Position numbers and translations under genes: made by a program. DNA of 64,000 nt. Source: Escherichia phage UPWr_E1. The stretch is from sequence record PP418985.1, one strand, 5' to 3'. Position 1 is the stretch's first letter; each line of letters opens with the position of its first letter. Of the stretch, positions 3,933 to 16,139 are shown in pieces. The notes under the pieces were generated by a model. The model did no database searches, was not told where the DNA came from, and was given only the letters and a program-made list of their open reading frames with translations.

Positions 3933-6476
3933 ATGTCTAACAAAATCAATGTATTACATCAAACAGAAGGTCCGGTTTATGGTTCCGTTGGTCGTCCACT
4001 TCTGTTAAAGATTGTTGTCAGTACAGCAGATTTTAAAGATTTTATAGCAGAATGGAAGCTGAACGGTGTAAATGTGCCAGCAGAACAAATTTCCGACGCG
4101 GATCAGTCTCTGTATATTGAGGAAATGCGAGAAAATCAATTTGGTACATATACATGTCACATTAAACTGAAAGACGAACCACAGGTCGGTGTAGATATTA
4201 AGCCTATTCTTGTACAGCGTAGATTTTTTATTGCACCGCAAGATCAGTCTCCGACGTATATTAAAAAACGAATCGGCGAAGAATTAACCCTATTCGCAAC
4301 ACCAGCAATTGAACTAGGTCAACACCCAGAGTTTCAATGGTATCGAAATCATATTCCGGTAGAACCAGAAAAAATCGAGGACAACCGAACCGTTCATATT
4401 GCCCGTGTTGGTCTTATTGATTTTGGCAATTATACGTGTCGTGTTACTGTCCGTGGTGAACCAGCATCACAATATTGGATTAATCCAATTATTGTAGAAA
4501 AGAATGATACCCCTCCTGTAGTGCATCTTAGCGAAGAATATCCTAGCTCTATTACAGTAGCAGAGGATTCAGCGGTACATCTCAATGTACTTGTTACATC
4601 AGATGATAAAGTATCGCCTATTGAGTATACGTGGATTCATAACGGTAGGATTGTTATCGAAGAAAACGGAAACTCTTTGGCAATTCCGCATATTCGAAAA
4701 GATCAGGAAGGTATCTGGCGTCTTGAGGTAAAACAAGGTGACACTACGGTGTATTCTAAAGATTGTCATATTGAGGTTGATAGTCAACCATTCTTTAGGA
4801 TCACACGTCAACCGCAAACTCTTAACGTGTCTGGCGGTGCTTTGGGTTTATTCAGCGTTGATTATAGAACAAACTATTCACCTGTAAAGATCCAGTGGTA
4901 TCGTAAAAAGAATACAGAACAGGAGTTTACACCAATTGTAGGTGAGACTAATAAAGATCTTCATATTACACCAGCTACTACTGAATTAAACCGAGCACGC
5001 TACAAAGCTCGTATCACGTATGGCACAGACCAATACAGAGATTCAGAAGAAGCTGAATTGCTAGTAGGTGAAGCATTAACTATTAGAATCACCAAACAAC
5101 CACAAGCTCTACAAAACGTCCGAGTTTCTTCCTCACAGACGATCACTTGTGAAGCTGAAACAAACTATGAACATTATCGCTTAGATTATCAGTGGTATAA
5201 AGATAACGAATTAATGCCAGGCAAAACATCTAATGTATTGCACTTCTCATCAATCAAAAAGACAGATGAGGGGCAATATAAGTGTATTGCATCAATGGGT
5301 ATTTCTGGTCATCGAATTACCGCAGAATCATCACCAGCACAGGTGACAGTAGACAATTCAAAGGCATCACTGACTATCACTAAACAGCCAACTGGTGCAA
5401 CAATTCGCACTGGTGGGTCGTGGTCTATTTCGGTCGAAGCAACATCAAACGATGCACTACCGATTCGCTATCGCTGGTTTAAAGACGGCGAAGATCTATT
5501 CCCACAAGGCGTTGAACAAAAAAACGTTTACGGTGAAGACCATGCTCAACCTGATTCGACTGGTGTATATACTTGTCGCGTTTCGGTTGGTTTTGGTGAT
5601 CACCGAGCGTCTCAAATGTCACATCCAGCAAGGGTGCTAATTAGCGATAATGTGGAAATTGTGCCGAATGACTTACAGGTCACCGCACATCCTCATGATA
5701 ATGACGTTAAGTATAATCAGCGTGTTATCTTAACAGCAAGATCTCAAAATAGCATCGGGTTAAAACCACATATTCAATGGAAAAAGGATGGTGTTGCTAT
5801 TCCGGGTGCAAATTCAGAGACTTTAGTCATTGAGCACGCGAAACCATTGGATGCAGGGGTTTACACCGCAGATATTACCGCAGCAGAAAAAACGGTAACA
5901 ACCAATCCGGCTACAGTTACTGTAGCAGAGCACAGCAATATTAATATCTTAAAACATCCAGTGGATGTGGTTGCAAAAGAAGGACAAACCACCGACATTG
6001 TATTGGAAGCTCATGCGGAACATTCTGACGGTGAAACCGAAGTTAGTTATCAGTGGCATAAAATTAAAGATGGCGTAGACACTGAAATAAGAGATGCAAC
6101 AAATAAAACTTTAGTTATCCCTCATGCACAGATCAGCAAGCAAGCTCATCAAGCGACCTATTACGCCGAGATAAAAGAAGAGAATGGACACGTTAAACAT
6201 AGCGAAAAAGTTCGAGTGGTGTTTACTACCGCGAAATTAAAACGCTATGTTCACCCGATCCCGTGGCGACGTACATCCTTCCAGTATCAAGGCTATTGGG
6301 TTATGGATGAGATTGATCGCTGTAATCGTGAAGGGCTTAACTGGCTTGAGGACTTTACGCACACCAAATATCCAGAAGAGATCGAAACTATTGCTGCATC
6401 ATTGCATCATTATTCAAATACTCATGTATTAGAATCTCGTAATGGTTATCTGGTTGATGGTACTCAACTATTTTAA
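3933..6476 (+). CDS. hoc: Hoc-like capsid decoration protein with ~7-8 Ig-like repeats and a shared C-terminal domain
   Basis: AGAGGA RBS; repeated W-Y/F-[KR]...G-x-Y-x-C Ig-like motifs (GNYTCRVTV, GQYKCIAS, GVYTCRVSV); C-terminal RYVHPIPWRRTSF...ESRNGY; hoc position. Confidence 0.7.
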   Translation: MSNKINVLHQTEGPVYGSVGRPLLLKIVVSTADFKDFIAEWKLNGVNVPAEQISDADQSLYIEEMRENQFGTYTCHIKLKDEPQVGVDIKPILVQRRFFIAPQDQSPTYIKKRIGEELTLFATPAIELGQHPEFQWYRNHIPVEPEKIEDNRTVHIARVGLIDFGNYTCRVTVRGEPASQYWINPIIVEKNDTPPVVHLSEEYPSSITVAEDSAVHLNVLVTSDDKVSPIEYTWIHNGRIVIEENGNSLAIPHIRKDQEGIWRLEVKQGDTTVYSKDCHIEVDSQPFFRITRQPQTLNVSGGALGLFSVDYRTNYSPVKIQWYRKKNTEQEFTPIVGETNKDLHITPATTELNRARYKARITYGTDQYRDSEEAELLVGEALTIRITKQPQALQNVRVSSSQTITCEAETNYEHYRLDYQWYKDNELMPGKTSNVLHFSSIKKTDEGQYKCIASMGISGHRITAESSPAQVTVDNSKASLTITKQPTGATIRTGGSWSISVEATSNDALPIRYRWFKDGEDLFPQGVEQKNVYGEDHAQPDSTGVYTCRVSVGFGDHRASQMSHPARVLISDNVEIVPNDLQVTAHPHDNDVKYNQRVILTARSQNSIGLKPHIQWKKDGVAIPGANSETLVIEHAKPLDAGVYTADITAAEKTVTTNPATVTVAEHSNINILKHPVDVVAKEGQTTDIVLEAHAEHSDGETEVSYQWHKIKDGVDTEIRDATNKTLVIPHAQISKQAHQATYYAEIKEENGHVKHSEKVRVVFTTAKLKRYVHPIPWRRTSFQYQGYWVMDEIDRCNREGLNWLEDFTHTKYPEEIETIAASLHHYSNTHVLESRNGYLVDGTQLF

Positions 6477-6482
6477 TATTAT

Positions 6483-6502
6483 TGGTCGCCCTTCGGGGCG
6501 AC
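6483..6502 (+). other. stem-loop GGTCGCCC-TTCG-GGGCGACC between the two hoc-like genes (no T-run)
   Basis: perfect 8-bp stem with UUCG tetraloop; lies inside the ORF-track N-terminal extension of the next gene. Confidence 0.5.
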
Positions 6503-6520
6503 CTTAACGGAGTTATTTTT

Positions 6521-7753
6521 ATGGCATTTACAGTAGCACTAAAATCAAATAAAAAATGTTTCCTTGCTGGCGATACATTTAAATTAACGGCTACATTAGC
6601 TGGGGTGGAAGATGGTCCGGTCCCATCAAATGTTACCTATGCATGGACTAAAAATGATCAGCCAATTGAAAATGAATCAAATGTATTAACGGTCTCTAAC
6701 GCAACAGCCGAGAGCGCCGGAAAATATAAAGTATCCGTTACTGACACAGACACACAAGAAGTGGTAGAATCTGCGGTTGTGTCAATGGCAGAAGCAGAAT
6801 TAGTAGTTAAAATTAATCATCCATCTAGCTACGTCGCATTCGATGAGGCGGTAGAATTAACAACTACGGTTTCATATTCAACCGGATTTGCACCGTCTAG
6901 CAATTACCAGTTGCATTATAAATGGGAACAAGATCAAACAAATTTAAACCATAGCGAAAGCACATTATCGATCAGCAACTTCGTCGATGACAACAATGGC
7001 GTTTATAAGGTTACTGTATGGGGCGAGTCAGAAACATCAGCGGACAGCGCCAGTGTTAAACTTGCAGCAATCTCTATATCTGTAGTTGAAGATGTACCAC
7101 TGGCAAAAACCGTCGCAATGGGTAAACCGATCACACTACCTTATCGCACGATGGGTGTTTCTATCGGTGACACGTCAGGTCTTCCGGCATTATCAACTAA
7201 ACAGTCATGGTATTTGCAGCGAGAAGGACAACCGCGCCCGACACTGATCGGGAGTGAGGTTGGGGAGGCATTGGAAGGGTTTTCTATCATGCCTAACGGC
7301 TATTTGCACAAAGAAGCTGCAACAATGGACGACACCGCTAACTTTTGGTGTATCGTAGAGTTGCTTCAAGAAATTGACGGGCAGCCAGTACCAATCGAAG
7401 AAAAAGGTAGCTCTCATTGCGCACTGGAAGTTGTAGAATCACTTCATAAGATGTTCCGGTATGTGCACCCGATCCCGTGGCGCAAAACTTCGTTTATCTA
7501 TATTGGATGGTGGGTATTCGACGAGATCGTTAAATTCAATGAGGCAGGGTTAGAATGGAGAAACCGTGAAGTTTACGAGGATAGCAAATATGCAAGCGAC
7601 ATCGAGACGATCGCGGCAGCGGAAGAAAAATATAGTGATTGCACTTGCATGGAATCTCGCAATGGTTTCATGTATCAGTCCAAAGAGTTCCATAAACTGG
7701 ACCGAGAGACATTAGAGCGTGTCCTGCGCATTCGTGAAACGCCTCCTGCTTAA
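6521..7753 (+). CDS. Hoc-like paralog (shorter Ig-like array, same C-terminal domain)
   Basis: GGAG RBS then ATG 6521; Ig-like motifs (GKYKVSVTD, GVYKVTVWG); C-terminal FRYVHPIPWRKTSF...ESRNGF, paralogous to 3933..6476. Confidence 0.65.
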   Translation: MAFTVALKSNKKCFLAGDTFKLTATLAGVEDGPVPSNVTYAWTKNDQPIENESNVLTVSNATAESAGKYKVSVTDTDTQEVVESAVVSMAEAELVVKINHPSSYVAFDEAVELTTTVSYSTGFAPSSNYQLHYKWEQDQTNLNHSESTLSISNFVDDNNGVYKVTVWGESETSADSASVKLAAISISVVEDVPLAKTVAMGKPITLPYRTMGVSIGDTSGLPALSTKQSWYLQREGQPRPTLIGSEVGEALEGFSIMPNGYLHKEAATMDDTANFWCIVELLQEIDGQPVPIEEKGSSHCALEVVESLHKMFRYVHPIPWRKTSFIYIGWWVFDEIVKFNEAGLEWRNREVYEDSKYASDIETIAAAEEKYSDCTCMESRNGFMYQSKEFHKLDRETLERVLRIRETPPA

Positions 7754-9319: not shown

Positions 9320-9907
9320 ATGTTTGACCAGTTACAAGATCTATTTGGAGTAAAACCACTTCGTAGATGTGCTTTAATCGGCTCTAGAAAAGCGCCTAGC
9401 GACATTTTGATAATGGCTAGTACCATTGGGAGGGTATTGTCAGAAAATCGCGTTGTAGCGCATTCTGGAGGGGCTTACGGTATGGACAATGCTTTCATGA
9501 AGTATTACGATCCAGATTATAGAAAAATTTTCATTCCAAATTGGAAGTTTTATGACCACAAGCATAACGGTCATGATGTGATTGCATGGCAAACCTTAGA
9601 ACAAAAGAATCTGGCGATGGATGAATTAGAACACGTTTATGATAATCCTCGTTCTATACCGTTATACATGCAAAATTTATTTTCTAGAAATGTTGCTCAA
9701 GTCTTAGGTGAGACACTTGATGATCCTGTAGATTGTGTGTTATTCTGGGCGAAAGAAGTTAATGGAATCGTTTCGGGAGGAACTCGAATTGCTGTTTATG
9801 TTGCCCGTAGACATGGGATACCATGTTTTAACTTATATCATCAAGAAAATAGATCCGCCGTCGAAAAAATCTTGGGCGGATCTGATTTGTCTTGGTTAGA
9901 TATTTAG
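9320..9907 (+). CDS. SLOG-superfamily (DprA/LOG-like) Rossmann-fold protein
   Basis: GGAGGA RBS then ATG 9320; GSRKAP ... HSGGAYGMDNAF resembles the DprA GSR/SGxAxGID motifs; ORF-track start 9191 has no RBS. Confidence 0.55.
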   Translation: MFDQLQDLFGVKPLRRCALIGSRKAPSDILIMASTIGRVLSENRVVAHSGGAYGMDNAFMKYYDPDYRKIFIPNWKFYDHKHNGHDVIAWQTLEQKNLAMDELEHVYDNPRSIPLYMQNLFSRNVAQVLGETLDDPVDCVLFWAKEVNGIVSGGTRIAVYVARRHGIPCFNLYHQENRSAVEKILGGSDLSWLDI

Positions 9908-11149
9908 TTAAGCGTTGTCAATCTCAAGTGGTGGCAGTTCGATTCCTAAAATGTAGGACATTTCAGAGCGTCCAGCCATTTTACCCCAATCGTCACCCTT
10001 GATGATCTGGTGTTCTTCCTGATCAACTTTTGATGTATATGGGTTGACAGAGAGTGAATAACGATTCATAATAGCTACATGATGCTGGAAGCTATTAGGA
10101 TCAATTACGCTCTTATACGCGCCAGCGCCATCGGCTTCTGTGTATGGGGAGTAGAACAGCGAACCTACGCTCTCCATATCACCGATCATGTGCTTACAGC
10201 CAACTAGCATATAATCGAACGGCGTTACCGTGTCTGCGTACACTTCCAGACCGCAACGTAGACGTCCTTCGCTTAGAGCGTTGTCGGTTTCTTCCATCCA
10301 TCCGGTAGACTGCAACAGACCAACTACGCGAGAAGATGCTAAAACGTATGTGCCAGCAAAGGAGGAAGTACGCAACATTTGATTGCTCATTTCGCAAGCA
10401 TAGCGGTAAAGTTCACGAGCTTGTTTTGGTGCATCCTGAACGCCAACGAGAGAAAGTACACCATCAGTGGTGATTCCTTTAATTTTATAGCGAGTTGATA
10501 CAGTGATCAACTTCTGCATAATATCTTTGTTGATCTCTTCGGAAGCGACAGTAGCCAGAAGGTCGATCACAGAATTTTCAGAATTGATTTGGCTTGCCTC
10601 AAGATCCTGCATTAATTCAGTGGTGAACGAGGTTTTCAGTTTACGAGAACCTACATTAACTTGCCACTTGTCAAACTGCATAGAGGTAGACGCAATTTCG
10701 GTGTTTTTATCTTCAAAGTATTCTACCGATGCACAATCGCTATAGAAACGAATTTTGTTTGTCATTACGCCTTTAAAGATCGCAGCTTCTGGAGTTGCGG
10801 AATCTTCGCTAACTCGACCAGCAACAACAGCTTGATAAACTACGTCGCCAGATTTAAACAGATCACCGATCTTGTATTCTTTTTCCTGTGAAAATTCTTC
10901 GATCTCTGTACGATCACCAGCCGCGCCACCGTAGGTTGCAGCAGTTCGGAAAGTCATCTGACCATCACGATTAAGATAACGTAGGCCGTACAATGCAGAT
11001 ACTGGTTGATCCGTTGGCTGGATTGCTACCAGATCAGAGAAAATCAGGTTGTTTACCGCGCGAGTTAATGATAATAGTTGCGGTCGCGCTGTCTGGTTAG
11101 CTACTGAGGAAGTAGATTCCCGCAACAGTTCAGTAAAAATATGAGTCAT
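9908..11149 (-). CDS. 24: head vertex protein gp24
   Basis: gp23-paralog fold signature; start MTHIF; late promoter TATAAATA 38 nt upstream; ORF-track start 11227 is an extension across the promoter. Confidence 0.9.
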   Translation of the reverse strand: MTHIFTELLRESTSSVANQTARPQLLSLTRAVNNLIFSDLVAIQPTDQPVSALYGLRYLNRDGQMTFRTAATYGGAAGDRTEIEEFSQEKEYKIGDLFKSGDVVYQAVVAGRVSEDSATPEAAIFKGVMTNKIRFYSDCASVEYFEDKNTEIASTSMQFDKWQVNVGSRKLKTSFTTELMQDLEASQINSENSVIDLLATVASEEINKDIMQKLITVSTRYKIKGITTDGVLSLVGVQDAPKQARELYRYACEMSNQMLRTSSFAGTYVLASSRVVGLLQSTGWMEETDNALSEGRLRCGLEVYADTVTPFDYMLVGCKHMIGDMESVGSLFYSPYTEADGAGAYKSVIDPNSFQHHVAIMNRYSLSVNPYTSKVDQEEHQIIKGDDWGKMAGRSEMSYILGIELPPLEIDNA

Positions 11150-11186
11150 GTTTATGAATCCTGTATTTGCCTTAATGGATATATCA

Positions 11187-11194
11187 TATTTATA
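11187..11194 (-). promoter_or_regulatory. T4-type late promoter TATAAATA (gene 24)
   Basis: tatttata on plus strand. Confidence 0.6.
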
Positions 11195-11205
11195 CAAAAA
11201 GAAAA

Positions 11206-11225
11206 GGGAATCCCGAAGGATTCCC
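11206..11225 (-). terminator. rho-independent terminator after the fiber-like module
   Basis: GGGAATCC-TTCG-GGATTCCC followed by TTTTCTTTTT on minus strand. Confidence 0.65.
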
Positions 11226-11233
11226 AAATAAAA

Positions 11234-11386
11234 TTACTTCTTCCTAGAAACATTATCAACGCTACGGTTAACTTTGTTTACAAGATTAATTGCATGATCA
11301 GAACGAATAATTGCATAAGCTAATGCTAACATCAATTCGTCGTATTCCTTACGAGTCATAACATAGCTGTTTTCTTTCTTACTCAT
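11234..11386 (-). CDS. small hypothetical protein (50 aa)
   Basis: AAGGAGG RBS 5 nt before ATG; last gene of the inserted module. Confidence 0.45.
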   Translation of the reverse strand: MSKKENSYVMTRKEYDELMLALAYAIIRSDHAINLVNKVNRSVDNVSRKK

Positions 11387-11396
11387 GCATTCCTCC

Positions 11397-12329
11397 TTAT
11401 GGAGAATTTGGGGTTAATTCAGGGAACAGCGTGCCAAAACCAAAATTACCGCTAGCGTCACGCTGGAATGTCATAACAAGGTCGACATAAACCGGATCTG
11501 TAAATCTATCAAATCTATCCGACCCAATATCAACCATGAACGCTAATTTAATCTCATTAGAATTTGAGATCGCAGCGTCAGCACATGCACCAAAAATTAC
11601 CTGAGTATCTTTTGCCGTATATGCATTGACCTGTATGTTGGTTGGTTTCATTACATCGTTAGACAAACCAGATAGTTCTACTCGTCCATTAAATGACGCC
11701 AGACTTTGACCACCGCCTAGATAATGAATATGACCACCTTGTGAAGATTGTGTCCAGTCCATTAGCATAACCTTAAATCTAGCCTCAAAACGCCCTTCCA
11801 CGTAATATCGACCAGTTTCAAAGTTTTGTCTAATTGGTGTCCATGTGATGTGTGGTTTTCCGCTTACAGGATCGACAAGAGTCACACCTACGGCTGGCTT
11901 AATACTGACACTATCAAATGAACGTGATAGCCAATTCCATGTTTGATTGTCTAGGTTTGGCAATTGTGGAATATTCAATCCATCTAATCGGCTGTGTGCT
12001 CGTGCTGCTTCCGATTCTGCGGTAGTCGCTTTAGTCAGTGCATCAGTTGCTTTGCTCATGGATTGCCCTGCCGTTCGATCGGCAACATCAGCAGTTGATT
12101 TTGCAATCTCTGCCGTTCGATGTGCTGAACTTGCTGTTTCTGTTATTACGTCATCGCACGCAATAACAAAATCAATTACAGGATCGATCAATTGAGTGTT
12201 GATTGAGTTGGAAATTCGTTCAACATCACTTTCCATTAGAGCATTAGATTCATTTCCTGTGAAATGAGTAATTTCACCTTGAACAAAATCATTTTGCAAC
12301 TTGCTGATCTTTGCTTTAATATCGGTCAT
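11397..12329 (-). CDS. fiber-like protein with Ala/Thr-rich helical N-terminal region and globular C-terminal domain
   Basis: GGGGTGA RBS; 310 aa; TAEIAKSTADVADRTAGQS...ATDALTKATTAESEAARAH resembles side-tail-fiber stalks; not in the T4 23-24 interval. Confidence 0.7.
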   Translation of the reverse strand: MTDIKAKISKLQNDFVQGEITHFTGNESNALMESDVERISNSINTQLIDPVIDFVIACDDVITETASSAHRTAEIAKSTADVADRTAGQSMSKATDALTKATTAESEAARAHSRLDGLNIPQLPNLDNQTWNWLSRSFDSVSIKPAVGVTLVDPVSGKPHITWTPIRQNFETGRYYVEGRFEARFKVMLMDWTQSSQGGHIHYLGGGQSLASFNGRVELSGLSNDVMKPTNIQVNAYTAKDTQVIFGACADAAISNSNEIKLAFMVDIGSDRFDRFTDPVYVDLVMTFQRDASGNFGFGTLFPELTPNSP

Positions 12330-12344
12330 GAATCACCCCGCTAA

Positions 12345-14063
12345 TTATTGTGCTTGCTCTGGAAGTGCTTGTATATTTTCTATAGTAGCACCCCATTTAA
12401 CGGCATTTAAACGAGCTTTGTGCATATCGTCTTCTCCGACTATTGCCGCAAAACCCTTTTTAGCGTGGAAATTCGCCCATGTGTTATATGCTAGTGCACC
12501 TACGCGTTTTGCTGTGTCGTGTTCAACTTCATCAACCATCAGCATTGTGCGGAAAGGTGCAAATGCTACATCTGGGTTATCGTCTTGTGTCCATGAACCA
12601 CCATTAAACGACACCTGCCACCTGAACATCTCACCAGACGGAATTTGATTAATTCTCAACTTTAGAGATCTTGTTTTCTGGTTTTTCTGAGTTACGTCTA
12701 GTGGAACCTGATATCTAGCCGCTTGTCGTTCTCTACCATCATTCATCCTATGCCATGCGGTAACAACAAGCATAACCGGAATTGTGTTTGATGTTTTAAT
12801 AAAACTAACATCAACTAAAAGTTCCATATCATAGCTACCAGATTTAGGCGCAACCCACCAATGGTCGGCATCAGCTTGTCGATCTGGCTCTTTAATCTGT
12901 GGTGTGCATCCATAGTTATCATGAATGACATACTTCCACGGAATGTAAAAAGCACCACCGCCAGTTCCTGGATTTGTAACTTCGAGTAGATTTTGTGCAG
13001 TGGTAAACACGCTTGACACGCGAGGGAAAGCATAAATGGTAGCACCACCAGTGTGATCGCTGATCTGTAACCATTCGGTCCATCGATCAGTTCTCTTTGT
13101 ATAGGAACGGTGATACATTACGCCATCAATGCTTGTTGCGATCTGCAATACATGATCTTTACATGCATGAACATCTACAGAACCATGTGTTTGTGTTCCA
13201 TTTGGACGGTTTGCCGACCCCTCAAAGTAACAGAAACGGCCTTGTTTAGTCAAGGTGTTTAGGTCTAGCGTTTCTGGCGAAATTTCCGGTAGACGTTTAC
13301 CCAGACTGGTTAACATCGCCTCCTGATCACCATTTAAACCACCGCCACCACTTCCTTCCCCGCTTTGAGAGTTCCACTCACGCCATGCACCATTGTGTCG
13401 GATGCGAGAGTAAACACCACCATCAATAGAACGGACCACTTGAAGAATGCTACCATCGACGACATATACATCTGCGGACCCCTTATTCGCCATCATTGGA
13501 GGTTTGCCATAGGTTGCATCACCTACCGGATAGCGTCCGGGTGATGTGGTTACATCCAGATTGTTAATTGGATTCGTCGTAGTCCATTTTACCTCAATTG
13601 CAGATAGACGCTGCGCAACGTTCGCTAATACTTCTGGTACTGGAAATACAAGAGATTCCTGTGTTCCGTCTGAGTACGTGACTTCTAGAGTCCAGTTGCG
13701 ATCGTCCTCGGACAAATTCGCTTCGATTCTAGCAATGCCACGACCATTTTCGCCCTTCTCACCAGGAATACCCTGTTCACCCTGAATAACCCAGGTCATA
13801 TCGACCCATTTTGATTTATCGTAGGGAGATTGTGCTGTTTTACCAGTCCATAATTGGAGTTTTTCGCCACAAACAATAATTGTTTTTAGTCTTTCCAATT
13901 CTGGAAAATGTTCGGTAAAATATTCATCCCTAGCTTCTTCATTTTCGAAACGGTGAGTATTTTTAATTCCGCTAGGTACGTTAGTTCCGATCTGAATACC
14001 ACCACCAGAACAACCACCACTCACGGAACCAGCATTAATGATAGCTTGTGGATTTAGCTTCAT
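12345..14063 (-). CDS. fiber-like protein with collagen-like Gly-X-Y run and two knob-like repeats
   Basis: GGGGGT RBS then ATG 14063; GEQGIPGEKGENGRG; two repeats of ...DG-x-x-Y-x-R...W-x-E-W (SIDGGVYSRIRHNGAWREW, SIDGVMYHRSYTKRTDRWTEW) typical of pyocin/tail-fiber knob domains. Confidence 0.75.
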   Translation of the reverse strand: MKLNPQAIINAGSVSGGCSGGGIQIGTNVPSGIKNTHRFENEEARDEYFTEHFPELERLKTIIVCGEKLQLWTGKTAQSPYDKSKWVDMTWVIQGEQGIPGEKGENGRGIARIEANLSEDDRNWTLEVTYSDGTQESLVFPVPEVLANVAQRLSAIEVKWTTTNPINNLDVTTSPGRYPVGDATYGKPPMMANKGSADVYVVDGSILQVVRSIDGGVYSRIRHNGAWREWNSQSGEGSGGGGLNGDQEAMLTSLGKRLPEISPETLDLNTLTKQGRFCYFEGSANRPNGTQTHGSVDVHACKDHVLQIATSIDGVMYHRSYTKRTDRWTEWLQISDHTGGATIYAFPRVSSVFTTAQNLLEVTNPGTGGGAFYIPWKYVIHDNYGCTPQIKEPDRQADADHWWVAPKSGSYDMELLVDVSFIKTSNTIPVMLVVTAWHRMNDGRERQAARYQVPLDVTQKNQKTRSLKLRINQIPSGEMFRWQVSFNGGSWTQDDNPDVAFAPFRTMLMVDEVEHDTAKRVGALAYNTWANFHAKKGFAAIVGEDDMHKARLNAVKWGATIENIQALPEQAQ

Positions 14064-14070
14064 ATAATAA

Positions 14071-14379
14071 TTACCCCCGTTTAGCAAGATACACGGTTAC
14101 AGTAGAATCATTGGAAACAGATTTTACTTTTGCCCTAATAAATGACCATAATGTTTCAAACGCTCCACCATCAGTTGCATATTCATTACCATCAGCTTTC
14201 AATTCTGAAATAGTGAACCAACCTTTGCCATCTAAGGAACCTTCTAACGAGGCTTCCGCAATGACTTTTTGCCCTTCCCGTGCACCCTCTACGGTCATCT
14301 GTACTGTCATGTGCGTACTATGAACGCAGTTTACCGACGCGGAAACGGCTGGAGTTTTGGTCTTTATAAGTGTGTGCAT
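14071..14379 (-). CDS. hypothetical protein (102 aa), first gene of the fiber-like module
   Basis: AAGGGGAG RBS; preceded by late promoter TATAAATA and the gp23 terminator. Confidence 0.6.
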   Translation of the reverse strand: MHTLIKTKTPAVSASVNCVHSTHMTVQMTVEGAREGQKVIAEASLEGSLDGKGWFTISELKADGNEYATDGGAFETLWSFIRAKVKSVSNDSTVTVYLAKRG

Positions 14380-14417
14380 CTAATTTTCGCTCCCCTTAGA
14401 ATATAGGCTTGCAACCT

Positions 14418-14425
14418 TATTTATA
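14418..14425 (-). promoter_or_regulatory. T4-type late promoter TATAAATA (fiber-like module)
   Basis: tatttata on plus strand, 39 nt upstream of the ATG at 14379. Confidence 0.6.
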
Positions 14426-14440
14426 ACGGGATATAATACG

Positions 14441-14470
14441 CAAAAAGGGAAGACCCTTTCGAGTCTTCCC
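14441..14470 (-). terminator. rho-independent terminator downstream of gene 23
   Basis: GGGAAGAC-tcgaaag-GTCTTCCC followed by TTTTTG on minus strand. Confidence 0.7.
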
Positions 14471-14540
14471 TTTGGAATTAACACTTTACACTGTCATAAG
14501 GTTTATGATAAGTCGGGCATTGCACCCGACCGGAGTTTAA

Positions 14541-16139
14541 TTAGCAACCTTTAACCCATACACGGCGGAAGTATGCGTTTTTACCTACGCTGTCTTTGCT
14601 CAACATACCGGAGGTGATGCGAGCGGACGGTGCCTGGGTTTTGCTGTCTGCAAACGGGTTAATACCGATGCCGTAGCGAGTCTTGAAGCCCAGAACCGGG
14701 TGGAAAGACTGCGGATCGGTTGCACGCAGCGGAGTCAGAGCAACATACGGCGCATAGTAGATACCAGCATCCATTTCGTTGTCGCCTTTGTAGCCTACGG
14801 TGAAGTAGTCCTGACGAGCATACTGGTCGATGAATACTTTGTACTTACCAGCCAGAACACCAGCGAAAACAGCTTTAGTGGTGTCGGTATTCAGACCTTT
14901 TGCAGCACCCTGCATAGCAACACTGATACCCTGATCAGCAGAAGCCAGAATGTTTACAACGTTACGGGAAGCGATAACAAAGTTACCAGCACCGCGACCA
15001 GTCTGACGAGCGATTTCAGCAGCTTCTTTGTCGATCTGGTAGATCAGAGATTTGAAGGATTCACCAGCCCAACGAGCACCGCGAGTATCGATCGGGTCTT
15101 GCAGGTCAAATACACCAGCTTTAGAACCAACGGTCTGAGTCATACCAGTCTTACCAACCTGTGCGGTAAAGTTGATAACGTCAACGATTTCACGGTTGAT
15201 TTCCAGCAGAACTTCGTTAGCCAGGATAGCATTCAGTTCAGCGTCAGCATCCATACCGTGTACAGCACGCAGATCCTGCGCAACTTCGATAGAATAACGA
15301 GCTTTCAGTTGGCGAGATTTCGCTTCAACAACCTGTTTGTCAATACGCATCGACATTTCAGCCCACGGGTTATTGCTGGAACCGTTAAAGCCTTCCTGAA
15401 TTTCGGCAATGGAAGTAGCCATACCGAAAGCGATTTCAGCCAGTTTACCTTCTTCCATCAGCTTCATGACCACTTCATCTTCGGATTCATCACCTGATTT
15501 CTGCGGAGTTACTGCGCTAGAAGTTACGTTTTGCAGATATGCAATACCAGTGTCTGCAAACGTGTGATGTACAATGTCTCCCGGTTGGATCTGGGTAGAT
15601 AATGCCAGTTTAGCGAATGCAGTACCAGTAGGAGAACCAGTCGTTGCATTTTTTGCTGCCAGAGAGCTATGGAACACATCTGGCGCATACATCGGGTGGA
15701 ATGCTTCACGAACATTTTTAGGATTACCACCAGCCAGCGGGTCTGGACCGTATACAGAACGGATTGCAAAGATCTGGCTAGTCGGGGTGCTCATAGGCTG
15801 AACGCCACAAATATCAAATGCAATCAGGTTAGGAATAGCACGGCGAACCATACCGATAACAGCCGGACCTACGTTAGTGATTGCACCGCTAGTCTGACCT
15901 GCCGCAATCTGGGATGCGTCGTAACCGTGGTCGCCAGCAACTTCGGCTTCGGCGATAAAACCACCGAATGCTTCAACAACTTTTTCATCCTTATAGATCG
16001 GATCTACAGCAAAATCCGCTTCCTGAGATTCCAGAATTTTAGCAACCAGTTTCTGCTTAGACGCAGTTGCGATTTCCGGCAGTTTTTCGTTCTCCAGCAG
16101 CGGGGACCATTTTTCCATCAGTTCTTTGGTAGTTTTCAT
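14541..16139 (-). CDS. 23: major capsid protein gp23
   Basis: 532 aa; long identical blocks with recalled T4 gp23 (RRAIPNLIAFDICGVQPM, IDKQVVEAKSRQLKA, GARWAGESFK, YFTVGYKG...DAGIYYAPYVALTPLR). Confidence 0.95.
   Translation of the reverse strand: MKTTKELMEKWSPLLENEKLPEIATASKQKLVAKILESQEADFAVDPIYKDEKVVEAFGGFIAEAEVAGDHGYDASQIAAGQTSGAITNVGPAVIGMVRRAIPNLIAFDICGVQPMSTPTSQIFAIRSVYGPDPLAGGNPKNVREAFHPMYAPDVFHSSLAAKNATTGSPTGTAFAKLALSTQIQPGDIVHHTFADTGIAYLQNVTSSAVTPQKSGDESEDEVVMKLMEEGKLAEIAFGMATSIAEIQEGFNGSSNNPWAEMSMRIDKQVVEAKSRQLKARYSIEVAQDLRAVHGMDADAELNAILANEVLLEINREIVDVINFTAQVGKTGMTQTVGSKAGVFDLQDPIDTRGARWAGESFKSLIYQIDKEAAEIARQTGRGAGNFVIASRNVVNILASADQGISVAMQGAAKGLNTDTTKAVFAGVLAGKYKVFIDQYARQDYFTVGYKGDNEMDAGIYYAPYVALTPLRATDPQSFHPVLGFKTRYGIGINPFADSKTQAPSARITSGMLSKDSVGKNAYFRRVWVKGC

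What the first reader, a model, noticed from the sequence alone, without database searches (positions are those of the whole stretch)
11234..14470. Late-promoter-driven fiber-like gene module inserted between major capsid gene 23 and vertex gene 24
T4 has no structural genes between 23 and 24 that I can recall. Here a terminator after gene 23 is followed by a TATAAATA late promoter and four genes (102 aa, 572 aa, 310 aa, 50 aa), then a second terminator and the gene 24 late promoter. The 572-aa protein has a collagen-like GEQGIPGEKGENGRG run and two knob-like repeats (SIDGGVYSRIRHNGAWREW; SIDGVMYHRSYTKRTDRWTEW) of the kind seen in pyocin and phage tail-fiber tips. The 310-aa protein has an Ala/Thr-rich helical stalk plus a globular C-terminus. 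Location inside the head operon with late expression suggests either head fibers or an auxiliary adhesin module.
Basis: partly seen in the sequence, partly recalled or inferred. Interest (0 to 1): 0.8.

Follow-up and report, generated by a model that had tools for sequence, protein, structure and literature searches.

The report
Spare fibre genes beside capsid genes
Between the two capsid-shell genes of this T4-type (RB49-like) coliphage lies a late-expressed four-gene set encoding two short knob-tipped fibres, probably extra host-binding adhesins, which laboratory relatives such as RB49 have lost by deletion.

Summary
On the minus strand, between gp23 (14541-16139) and gp24 (9908-11149), lie a terminator, a TATAAATA late promoter, four genes with ribosome-binding sites (102, 572, 310 and 50 aa), a second terminator and the gp24 late promoter.

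"Inserted" is the wrong direction. RB49, Phi1, JSE and G37-3 carry scars of the module with identical microhomology junctions, so it is ancestral and was deleted. The small first gene followed by a fibre gene also sits between gp23 and gp24 in Aeromonas phage 31 and in an uncultured T4-like contig.

My reading is a dispensable accessory adhesin cassette carried on the virion. Whether the fibres dock on the head, neck or baseplate is unresolved. No function has been published for these genes. Interest is moderate to high.

The parts
14541..16139 (-). gp23 major capsid protein gene (left flank, not part of the module)
   Evidence: 532-aa ORF. The corresponding gene is annotated major capsid protein in Brandy, Phi1, JK32 and G2248. 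Pfam Gp23 hits the orthologue in L009.
14439..14473 (-). Intrinsic terminator after gp23: 13-bp stem, 4-nt loop, then UUUUUG
   Evidence: Fold energy -20.9 kcal/mol, z -5.0, with 0 of 200 shuffles folding as well. Annotated as a terminator in G2248. An extra hairpin lies at 14511-14531 (-12.9 kcal/mol).
14418..14425 (-). T4-type late promoter TATAAATA for the module
   Evidence: Exact match about 39 nt upstream of the ORF-A ATG. Retained unchanged in the deletion derivatives Phi1 and RB49.
14071..14379 (-). ORF-A: 102-aa beta-rich protein, a conserved partner of the fibre gene and a putative adaptor or lectin-like subunit
   Evidence: PHROG 16217, function unknown. Homologues lie directly upstream of a fibre gene in L009, L014, L015 and Aeromonas phage 31, and the domain is fused to an SGNH esterase in Pseudomonas phage Orisa03. 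dN/dS 0.05-0.11. Only non-significant CBM32/F5-F8-type-C hints.
12345..14063 (-). ORF-B: 572-aa mosaic fibre protein
14028..14063 (-). ORF-B residues 1-12 (MKLNPQAIINAG): putative docking peptide
   Evidence: Residues 1-34 are the most conserved segment of ORF-B: 73.5% identical against 46% overall in the most distant orthologue. The motif M-x-[LI]-N-P-x-A-[IV]-[IL]-N recurs at the N-termini of the fibres that follow ORF-A in L014 and in Aeromonas phage 31, which are otherwise unrelated. pLDDT is below 50 in the monomer model.
13788..13961 (-). ORF-B residues 35-92: N-domain, followed in relatives by collagen repeats
   Evidence: A profile search finds this domain at the N-termini of many otherwise different proteins. 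pLDDT is 56-86.
13737..13781 (-). ORF-B residues 95-109: five Gly-X-Y triplets (short collagen-like segment)
   Evidence: Read directly from the sequence. The Gly columns are invariant or nearly so. Relatives carry long Pfam Collagen repeats at the same place.
13368..13577 (-). ORF-B residues 163-232: knob repeat 1
13056..13277 (-). ORF-B residues 263-336: knob repeat 2
   Evidence: Same evidence as for knob 1. The knob region matches tail-fibre proteins that carry Peptidase_S74 or GDPD domains.
12474..13031 (-). ORF-B residues ~345-530: distal TNF/C1q-like jelly-roll head
11397..12329 (-). ORF-C: 310-aa coiled-coil fibre with a globular head
   Evidence: 17 homologue clusters. Model pLDDT 76. 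dN/dS 0.07-0.14.
11979..12233 (-). ORF-C residues 33-117: a single 85-residue helix (alanine-zipper coiled coil)
   Evidence: Pfam Alanine_zipper matches residues 62-116 at 23.1 bits, exactly the cut-off. The model shows helix 33-117.
11430..11927 (-). ORF-C residues 135-300: distal beta-sandwich head
11234..11386 (-). ORF-D: 50-aa helical protein, last gene of the operon; its link to the fibres is uncertain
   Evidence: PHROG 16600, function unknown. It stays intact and 48-49/50 identical in phages that have lost the fibres. Present in L009 at 37% identity. Absent from the L014 and Aeromonas modules.
11196..11225 (-). Intrinsic terminator closing the module: 8-bp stem, UUCG loop, T-run
   Evidence: Fold energy -14.2 kcal/mol, z -3.0. 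Found by the consensus scan. Annotated in G2248.
11187..11194 (-). Late promoter TATAAATA of gp24 (right boundary)
   Evidence: Exact match 38 nt upstream of the gp24 ATG at 11149.
9908..11149 (-). gp24 vertex protein gene (right flank)
   Evidence: 413 aa, 94.9% identical to Phi1 gp24.

Best explanation
The interval holds a self-contained late operon, an accessory-adhesin cassette.

**Expression.** Late in infection the TATAAATA promoter drives four genes, bounded by intrinsic terminators.

**The two fibres.** Two of the products are short fibres, presumably trimeric.
- ORF-B is built from a small N-domain, a five-triplet collagen-like segment, two pyocin-type knobs and a distal TNF/C1q-like head.
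- ORF-C is built from an ~85-residue alanine-zipper coiled coil and a distal lectin-like beta-sandwich head.

**Proposed mechanism (inferred).**
- Both fibres are incorporated into the virion through their strongly conserved N-terminal segments. ORF-A, the 102-aa protein always encoded just upstream, acts as adaptor or co-subunit.
- Their heads give reversible binding to a surface glycan such as O-antigen or capsule, or to the environment. This improves adsorption on wild, smooth hosts.
- The docking site is not resolved. The capsid is my leading guess (about 0.4), then the neck or baseplate (about 0.35).

**History.** The cassette is not needed on rough laboratory strains. It is ancestral to the RB49-like genus and was lost in the RB49/Phi1/JSE lineage by two microhomology-mediated deletions.

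**What is shown:** gene structure, folds, purifying selection, ancestry and deletion, and conserved synteny.

**What is inferred:** trimer state, presence in the virion, ligand, role of ORF-A and docking site.
For: **Transcription unit.** Late promoter, ribosome-binding sites and flanking terminators are all present.

**Real genes.** dN/dS is 0.05-0.15 for all four ORFs. GC content matches the flanks.

**Fibre and receptor-binding folds.**
- Every named viral Foldseek hit is of the fibre or tail/receptor-binding class, or a collagen/C1q-domain protein; none is a head-fibre or capsid-decoration protein.
- The knob profile retrieves pyocin fibres first among 177,635 PDB sequences.
- Proteins that share the knobs carry Peptidase_S74 or GDPD domains and match PHROG tail-fibre families.
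- ORF-C's head is closest to the pyocin fibre foot and to the AP22 and lactococcal receptor-binding heads.

**Conserved proximal ends, exchangeable distal parts.**
- ORF-B residues 1-34 are its best conserved part.
- JK32 has a third fibre that shares only ORF-C's N-terminal ~110 residues.
- dS of ORF-B and ORF-C is 2-5 times that of gp23 and gp24, indicating exchange of alleles.

**Ancestral and dispensable.**
- Only 5 of 58 matching phage records hold the whole module.
- RB49, Phi1, JSE and G37-3 share junctions at window 14371, 12739 and 11558. The first deletion ends at 12880. They keep scraps of ORF-B and a frameshifted ORF-C tail, and in Phi1 the ORF-A start codon reads ATA instead of ATG. 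The junctions show CACA and AATGA microhomology.

**Conserved synteny.** The same four genes lie between gp23 and gp24 in a 169-kb metagenomic genome in which ORF-B is only 46% identical. An ORF-A homologue followed by a fibre gene lies between gp23 and gp24 in Aeromonas phage 31 (Pfam tail-fibre repeats plus Sf6-type knob) and in a third T4-like lineage, L014.

**Circumstantial phenotypes.**
- Brandy49, which carries the module, crosses O-antigen layers by an unexplained mechanism. [quoted passage not shown]
- JK32, which also carries it, depends on the O-antigen chain-length gene wzzB in O157:H7; no such signal is reported for RB49, whose only listed determinant is OmpA (bioRxiv 10.64898/2026.07.23.740414).
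Against: - There is no virion proteomics or imaging for any phage that carries the module.
- The electron microscopy reported for JK32 describes ordinary T4-like morphology and mentions no extra fibres.
- The models are monomers. Mean pLDDT for ORF-B is only 66.6, and I could not model trimers, ORF-A or any complex.
- Brandy's deposited ORF-B carries a 1-nt deletion that splits it into 250 + 347 aa. If the deletion is real, Brandy49's phenotype cannot depend on an intact ORF-B.
- Nothing resembles a known head-fibre or decoration protein.
- In non-T4 phages of ~43-45 kb, ORF-A relatives sit among tail-fibre, tailspike and lysis genes.
- An N-domain relative in a crAss-like phage lies in the tail-gene region.
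- The gp23-gp24 gap may simply be a site that tolerates insertions. From my own knowledge, T4 carries the homing endonuclease gene segD there.
Confidence: 0.6

Rival explanations
1. The proteins are the same, but they are auxiliary tail or neck fibres. They would dock on the baseplate periphery, on the long-tail-fibre or whisker system, or on the collar. The location next to the capsid genes would then be an accident of a permissive intergenic site.
For: - The virion-protein structural neighbours are tail fibres, tail spikes or baseplate receptor-binding proteins, apart from the PRD1 P5 vertex spike and a few capsid-protein jelly rolls; the remaining neighbours are the TNF/C1q family.
- ORF-A relatives in Orisa03 and in L022-L024 lie in receptor-binding gene clusters next to baseplate, tail-fibre and lysis genes.
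- The N-domain relative in a crAss-like phage lies in the tail region.
- In a Vibrio siphophage the relative lies between the head-tail adaptor gene and the tail-completion gene, which suggests the neck.
Against: - In T4-like genomes fibre genes normally sit beside their attachment partners, whereas here the unit stays between gp23 and gp24 in three lineages whose gp23 is only ~70% identical.
- Another N-domain fibre lies next to hoc-like and inh head genes.
- No similarity was found to T4 gp9, gp10, gp11, gp12, gp34 or Wac attachment domains in Pfam, PHROG or PDB searches.
Confidence: 0.3
2. The products are not virion components. They would be late-made soluble or cell-surface proteins, for example lectin-like factors released at lysis that bind debris or receptors, or factors that block superinfection or alter the cell surface.
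For: - No direct evidence places them in the virion.
- ORF-A has weak carbohydrate-binding-module hints.
- In Orisa-like phages the neighbouring collagen/knob protein appears to start with a signal-peptide-like hydrophobic segment.
- Brandy tolerates a split ORF-B.
Against: - The window's proteins carry no signal peptide or membrane segment (sequence).
- The layout of a conserved proximal end, a stalk and a distal head is that of assembled fibres.
- The late promoter sits in the structural gene block.
- Relatives carry typical virion-fibre modules, such as Peptidase_S74 chaperone domains.
Confidence: 0.07
3. The module is decaying or selfish cargo with no current function, comparable to the homing-endonuclease genes that occupy such gaps in T-even phages.
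For: - The module is missing from most cultured relatives.
- The interval varies in length.
Against: - Purifying selection acts on all four ORFs.
- The four-gene synteny is kept down to 46% protein identity.
- No nuclease or mobility domains were detected.
- About 150 member sequences fall in 22 clusters, nearly all full length.
Confidence: 0.03

Closest known systems
R-type pyocin and P2-type tail fibres (P. aeruginosa PA0620; PDB 6cl5, 6cl6, 6cu2, 6cxb)
   Different: - Here the knobs and the foot-like head are on two separate proteins.
- ORF-B ends in a TNF/C1q-like head instead of a foot.
- The N-terminal attachment region is unrelated to the P2 gpH/pyocin baseplate-binding domain.
- No Tfa-type chaperone gene follows.
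- The genes lie in the head operon of a T4-like phage.
Collagen-stalk plus TNF/C1q-head proteins (PRD1 vertex spike P5, Bacillus BclA, complement C1q)
   Different: The window's protein has only five triplets, and about 230 residues of other domains (beta-domain and two knobs) separate them from the head. There is no sequence similarity. Trimer state was not tested.
Dispensable accessory side fibres lost in laboratory stocks (lambda Stf, T5 L-shaped fibres pb1); from my own knowledge
   Same: These are additional fibres that speed adsorption by reversible glycan binding. They are not essential on laboratory strains, and in lambda they were lost by mutation in the common laboratory lineage. This parallels the deletion in RB49, Phi1 and JSE.
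   Different: No homology. Those fibres are attached to the tail, whereas the docking site here is unknown. The functional parallel is an inference.
Capsid fibres and decorations (phi29 gp8.5, Agrobacterium phage 7-7-1 vertex fibres, T4 Hoc, phi24B gp84)
   Same: - Late structural accessory proteins that extend from the head and mediate first contact.
- In 7-7-1 a small beta-domain link protein at the pentamer centre is proposed as the fibre anchor (PMC12796354).
- phi24B gp84 uses a small N-terminal capsid-binding domain fused to an esterase (bioRxiv 10.64898/2026.04.10.717836). This echoes the fusion of the ORF-A domain to an esterase in Orisa03.
   Different: No sequence or fold match to any of them. 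ORF-A is not DUF1737. Capsid location is untested here.
Aeromonas phage 31 / 44RR2.8t ORF162w-ORF163w (genus Biquartavirus)
   Same: Same position between gp23 and gp24. ORF162w is an ORF-A homologue (35% identity, E 8e-11). The next gene is a fibre with the same N-terminal peptide (MILNPKAVLN) and a TNF-like Sf6-type knob.
   Different: There is one short fibre (288 aa, Pfam Phage_fiber_rpt plus Phage_tail_NK) instead of two, and no ORF-D. Apart from the first ten residues it is not homologous to ORF-B. It is likewise uncharacterised.

Membership tests
Pyocin-knob-containing fibre proteins (R-type pyocin / phage tail-fibre class) | One or more knob domains with the conserved motif and fold | tested here: met
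   - The two repeats are homologous to each other (hhalign 99.3%, E 3.7e-20).
- The knob profile's three best PDB hits are R1/R2 pyocin fibres (E 1.3e-3, 0.09, 0.11).
- PHROG 18794 and tail-fibre PHROGs match relatives.
Pyocin-knob-containing fibre proteins (R-type pyocin / phage tail-fibre class) | N-terminal baseplate-attachment domain of the P2 gpH/pyocin type | tested here: not met
   No Pfam, PHROG, NCBIfam or PDB match of that kind. The N-domain belongs to a different family, one that is followed by collagen repeats.
Pyocin-knob-containing fibre proteins (R-type pyocin / phage tail-fibre class) | Homotrimeric assembly | not testable with these tools
   Only monomer predictions were available. 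The trimer is inferred from the collagen-like segment, the TNF-like head and the alanine-zipper helix.
C1q/TNF-like head domain | Ten-strand jelly-roll of TNF topology at the distal end | tested here: met
Collagen triple-helix repeat (Pfam PF01391) | Uninterrupted Gly-X-Y repeats long enough to reach the family threshold | tested here: not met
   The window's protein has only five triplets and gives no Pfam hit. The Gly periodicity is conserved. Relatives have threshold-passing repeats at the same position. It is a minimal collagen-like segment, not a Pfam member.
Lpp/OprI alanine-zipper lipoproteins | Alanine-zipper trimeric coiled coil | tested here: inconclusive
   Pfam PF11839 scores 23.1 bits, exactly the cut-off, over residues 62-116. 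NCBIfam gives 20.9 against a cut-off of 43. A continuous helix 33-117 is predicted.
Lpp/OprI alanine-zipper lipoproteins | Signal peptide with lipobox | tested here: not met
   The N-terminus MTDIKAKISKLQNDF has no hydrophobic signal and no lipobox Cys. ORF-C resembles the coiled coil only and is not a lipoprotein.
Phage head fibres / capsid decoration proteins | Homology to a known head-fibre or decoration protein (phi29 gp8.5, Hoc, Soc, DUF1737 and others) | tested here: not met
Phage head fibres / capsid decoration proteins | Gene in the head-morphogenesis block under late control | tested here: met
   The module lies between gp23 and gp24 with its own late promoter. The position is conserved in L009, L014 and Aeromonas phage 31.
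Phage head fibres / capsid decoration proteins | Physical presence on the capsid | not testable with these tools
   This needs virion proteomics, cryo-EM or immunolabelling. Published electron microscopy of JK32 reports nothing unusual.
T4-type late transcription unit | TATAAATA -10 element without a -35, upstream of the first gene; terminator downstream | tested here: met
   Dependence on gp55/gp33 cannot be tested here.

The most novel reading that the evidence does not exclude
These would be the first genetically defined capsid fibres of a T4-like phage. ORF-A would be a new capsid-adaptor family, sitting for example at gp24 vertices or on gp23 capsomers. It would capture the conserved N-terminal peptide (M-x-L-N-P-x-A-I-I-N) of interchangeable fibres. 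The system would be shared by several genera of Straboviridae but missed because RB49, Phi1 and JSE had deleted it. It could then explain how some RB49-like therapy phages cope with O-antigen barriers.
Probability: 0.3. Interest if true: 0.8.

Novelty: new variant of a known kind. Interest (0 to 1): 0.6.

Why it matters
RB49-like (Krischvirus) phages are used in therapeutic cocktails. Their host range has been explained entirely by the long-tail-fibre adhesin gp38. [quoted passage not shown]

This analysis shows that a subset of the genus, including Brandy, JK32, G2248, SSG23 and many uncultured relatives, encodes two or three further fibre proteins of the receptor-binding type. It also shows that the type phages lack them only because of an old deletion. 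That yields testable candidates for accessory host recognition.

The work also defines a small protein family (ORF-A) that accompanies fibre and receptor-binding-type genes in several phage groups: directly upstream of the fibre gene in the T4-like lineages, and adjacent to or fused with such proteins in others. Finally, it raises the possibility of head-borne fibres in the T4 family.

Tried and rejected
1. **Direct sequence annotation.** Pfam, PHROG, NCBIfam and PDB-sequence searches of the four proteins gave no significant named family, apart from the borderline alanine-zipper hit.
2. **ORF-A.**
   - A profile search against PDB gave only non-significant hits, including a CBM32 domain at E 1.3. 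I do not claim a fold.
3. **Acquired island.** Rejected: composition matches the flanks and the relatives carry scars.
4. **Module bounded by mobile regulatory cassettes.** Both ends do have a terminator plus late promoter pair. However, the deletion junctions lie inside ORF-A, ORF-B and ORF-C at 4-5 nt microhomologies, not at those cassettes.
5. **Homology between ORF-C and other downstream genes.** I tested the genes that follow the fibre in L014, L015 and L022-L024. No match was found. A shared "LQNGFV" string in the L023 133-aa protein is not supported by an HMM search.
6. **ORF-A as an obligate partner of the N-domain.** Rejected: N-domain fibres occur without ORF-A in crAss-like, Vibrio and other contigs.
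7. **Literature.** I found no proteomic, structural or genetic study of these genes.
8. **PF27308.** This Pfam accession is precomputed for three ORF-B homologues but is absent from the local Pfam copy, so I could not name it.

Full report
**What is there**

The window is a Krischvirus (RB49-like, Straboviridae) genome segment. The closest deposited records are Shigella phage SSG23 and phage Brandy, at about 93% identity over the region. An IMG/VR contig, L020, is nearly identical.

All relevant genes are on the minus strand.
- gp23 is at 14541-16139.
- Two hairpins follow it. The stronger has its stem at 14444-14473 and folds at -20.9 kcal/mol, z -5.0.
- A TATAAATA late promoter lies at 14418-14425.
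- ORF-A (102 aa) is at 14071-14379.
- ORF-B (572 aa) is at 12345-14063.
- ORF-C (310 aa) is at 11397-12329.
- ORF-D (50 aa) is at 11234-11386.
- A UUCG-loop terminator has its stem at 11206-11225 (-14.2 kcal/mol).
- The gp24 late promoter is at 11187-11194, and gp24 runs from 11149 down to 9908.

The octamer is only mildly enriched in the window, 10 against 5.9 expected. Its placement in front of genes is what makes it credible.

**The genes are real**

Against Brandy, G2248 and JK32 all four ORFs show dN/dS of 0.05-0.15, similar to gp23 and gp24. GC content does not differ from the flanks. Synonymous divergence of ORF-B and ORF-C is two to five times that of the flanking capsid genes. Against G2248, dS is 0.79 and 0.95 compared with 0.27 and 0.44. 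Against JK32 it is 1.6 and 2.2 compared with 0.39. This pattern fits old, exchanged alleles rather than relaxed constraint.

**ORF-B**

A database search found 22 homologue clusters, nearly all full length, down to 38% identity. Almost all come from uncultured sources. A model built on their alignment has modest overall confidence (pLDDT 66.6) but resolves separate domains.

- Residues 1-34 are disordered.
- Residues 35-92 form a small alpha/beta domain.
- Residues 95-109 are the Gly-X-Y run.
- Residues 110-141 form a small beta domain, followed by a short helix.
- Two beta knobs span about 163-232 and 263-336, separated by a Gly-rich linker and a helix.
- A C-terminal beta-sandwich spans about 345-530, with pLDDT 80-92.

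The two knobs are homologous to each other (hhalign 99.3%). A profile of them retrieves the R1/R2 pyocin tail fibres as the top three of 177,635 PDB sequences, the best at E 1.3e-3.

An exhaustive profile search shows that the protein is a mosaic.
- The N-domain occurs at the N-termini of many otherwise different proteins. It is usually followed by collagen repeats, up to dozens of triplets.
- The knobs occur in tail-fibre proteins that carry Peptidase_S74 or GDPD domains.
- The C-terminal head occurs alone in ~300-aa proteins.

Against predicted viral structures, the named matches are tail-fibre, tail or receptor-binding proteins, or collagen/C1q-domain proteins.

**ORF-C**

There are 17 homologue clusters. 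The model (pLDDT 76) shows one helix spanning residues 33-117 and a beta-sandwich spanning about 135-291.

Pfam Alanine_zipper matches at exactly its threshold. There is no signal peptide or lipobox, so this is a coiled-coil resemblance only.

**ORF-A and ORF-D**

ORF-A has no significant named relative. It does have a clear genomic habit: its homologues sit directly upstream of a fibre gene.
- In a 169-kb Krischvirus-like metagenomic genome (L009).
- In a third T4-like lineage (L014: gp23, 102 aa, a 675-aa collagen fibre, 828 aa, gp24).
- In L015 and L016.
- In Aeromonas phages 31 and 44RR2.8t.

In Pseudomonas phage Orisa03 the ORF-A domain forms the N-terminus of a GDSL/SGNH esterase. That protein lies next to collagen-repeat and pectate-lyase-like proteins. 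In three ~43-kb viral contigs ORF-A stands among tail-fibre, tailspike and endolysin genes.

The fibres that follow ORF-A in the three T4-like lineages share an N-terminal peptide. It reads MKLNPQAIIN here, MDINPSAVIN in L014 and MILNPKAVLN in Aeromonas phage 31. The Aeromonas fibre is otherwise unrelated, with Pfam tail-fibre repeats plus an Sf6-type knob. Residues 1-34 are also the best conserved part of ORF-B. I therefore infer that this peptide is a docking element and that ORF-A is its partner, either as an adaptor or as a lectin-like co-subunit. This is inference, not demonstration.

ORF-D stays intact in phages that lack the fibres. It is absent from the L014 and Aeromonas modules. Its membership of the functional unit is doubtful.

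**Ancestral, not inserted**

Only 5 of 58 matching phage records carry the full module. The others are not empty.

RB49, Phi1, JSE and G37-3 keep the following:
- the terminator, the late promoter and the ribosome-binding site, plus the first codons of ORF-A (in Phi1 the ATG reads ATA);
- a 100-140-nt scrap of ORF-B's head region (window 12880-12739; missing in JSE);
- the last ~160 nt of ORF-C with frameshifts, which is annotated as Phi1 ORF161.1;
- an intact ORF-D.

The junctions are the same in all four, at window 14371, 12739 and 11558, with the first deletion ending at 12880. They show CACA and AATGA microhomology. This points to one ancestral double deletion by illegitimate recombination, followed by further erosion in some lineages.

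The ORF-B scrap resembles a different allele, like P0001, rather than the window's own allele. JK32 has an additional 614-aa coiled-coil protein that shares only ORF-C's N-terminal ~110 residues. So the cassette varies by adding and swapping distal parts on conserved proximal ends, as receptor-binding modules typically do.

**Where the fibres sit**

I could not settle this.

*For the capsid.*
- The ORF-A and fibre pair stays between gp23 and gp24 in three lineages whose gp23 is about 70% identical and whose gp24 is about 48% identical.
- Another N-domain fibre lies next to hoc-like and inh genes.
- There are precedents of vertex fibres anchored by small beta-domains (PMC12796354) and of a small capsid-binding domain fused to an esterase (phi24B gp84).

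*Against the capsid.*
- No similarity to any known head protein was found.
- The virion-protein structural neighbours are tail fibres or receptor-binding proteins, apart from PRD1 P5 and a few capsid-protein jelly rolls; the rest are the TNF/C1q family.
- ORF-A relatives in non-T4 phages lie with tail-associated receptor-binding genes.
- N-domain relatives lie in a crAss-like tail region and in a siphophage neck region.
- Electron microscopy of JK32 reports ordinary T4 morphology.
- From my own knowledge, T4 carries the homing endonuclease gene segD in this gap, so the gap tolerates insertions.

My estimates are: virion-borne accessory fibres about 0.8, of which capsid about 0.4, neck or tail about 0.35, and the rest undecided.

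**Possible phenotypes (circumstantial)**

Brandy49 carries the module. It has the broadest host range of the RB49-like phages studied, and it passes several O-antigen types without using them as receptor, by an unexplained mechanism. Its authors considered only gp38 and gp12 (PMC9569957).

JK32 also carries the module. It uses Tsx, and it loses infectivity when the O-antigen chain-length regulator wzzB is disrupted in O157:H7. RB49 uses OmpA, and no such signal is reported for it.

One caution applies. Brandy's deposited ORF-B has a 1-nt deletion in the Gly-rich linker that splits it into 250 + 347 aa. This may be a sequencing error or a real loss.

**Verdict**

- The fibre-like reading is supported by fold, profile and context evidence.
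- "Inserted" should be replaced by "ancestral and deleted in the laboratory lineage".
- The head-fibre idea remains open.
- The folds belong to a known kind, phage fibre adhesins. The combination, the ORF-A partner family, the conserved position in the T4-type head operon and the loss in the type phages appear undescribed in the literature I could search.

Noticed in passing
window 3933-6476 (+) and 6482-7753 (+): Two adjacent multi-Ig-domain proteins (847 and 423 aa; Pfam Ig_3 at E 2e-43 and 2e-9) lie on the strand opposite to gp24. They are presumably Hoc and a long Hoc-like paralogue. The same pair (841 and 411 aa) is present in the divergent contig L009.
   Followed up: partly
window 9320-9907 (+): A 195-aa ORF converges on gp24 and ends where gp24 ends. 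It has a weak DprA-like match (Pfam DNA_processg_A, E 8e-5, below the cut-off). It corresponds to Phi1 ORF164.
   Followed up: partly
L003 5257-7101 (Shigella phage JK32): JK32 has an extra 614-aa "tropomyosin-like" gene between ORF-C and ORF-D. Its first ~110 residues are homologous to ORF-C's N-terminus (34-39% identity). The rest is a longer coiled coil with a different end, so it looks like a third fibre on the same docking module.
   Followed up: partly
L001 2038-3767 (phage Brandy, MZ504876): The ORF-B orthologue is annotated as two CDSs because of a 1-nt deletion (AAA to AA at nt 729) in the Gly-rich linker between the knobs. This may be a real pseudogene or a sequencing error.
   Followed up: partly
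L007 4995-6159 (Aeromonas phage 31; also 44RR2.8t and Stenotrophomonas phage IME13): Another T4-like genus has, between gp23 and gp24, an ORF-A homologue followed by a 288-aa protein with Pfam tail-fibre repeats and an Sf6-type needle knob. In IME13 the ORF-A homologue is not annotated at all.
   Followed up: partly
L008 6974-12019 (Pseudomonas phage Orisa03); L022-L024: In ~43-45-kb non-T4 phages the ORF-A domain is either fused to a GDSL/SGNH esterase or free-standing. It lies next to a collagen-repeat protein with a conserved C-terminal domain and next to pectate-lyase-like or T7-type fibre proteins, just after the lysis genes. The collagen protein appears to begin with a signal-peptide-like segment, which is odd for a virion protein.
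   Followed up: partly
L019 2274-5797: In another T4-like contig, a 391-aa protein made of N-domain, collagen repeats and a coiled coil (P0050) lies directly after inh and a 757-aa Hoc-like Ig protein. No ORF-A homologue is nearby.
   Followed up: no
window 14410-14480 and 11180-11236 (-): Both ends of the module have the same layout: a GGGAA...TTCCC hairpin, a T-run, then TATAAATA within 10-25 nt. This is reminiscent of the regulatory cassettes proposed to mediate module shuffling in RB49 and phi1. The actual deletion junctions do not use them.
   Followed up: partly
P0003, P0007, P0008 (ORF-B homologues): The protein database lists a precomputed Pfam accession, PF27308.1, for these three homologues. 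That family is absent from the local Pfam copy, and rescanning did not reproduce any hit.
   Followed up: partly
L006 7627-10674 (Vibrio phage 489E54-1) and about 85 other Vibrio phage records: The ORF-B N-domain opens a 1015-aa protein encoded between the head-tail adaptor gene and the tail-completion gene of a siphophage. This may be a neck or head fibre in marine Vibrio phages.
   Followed up: no
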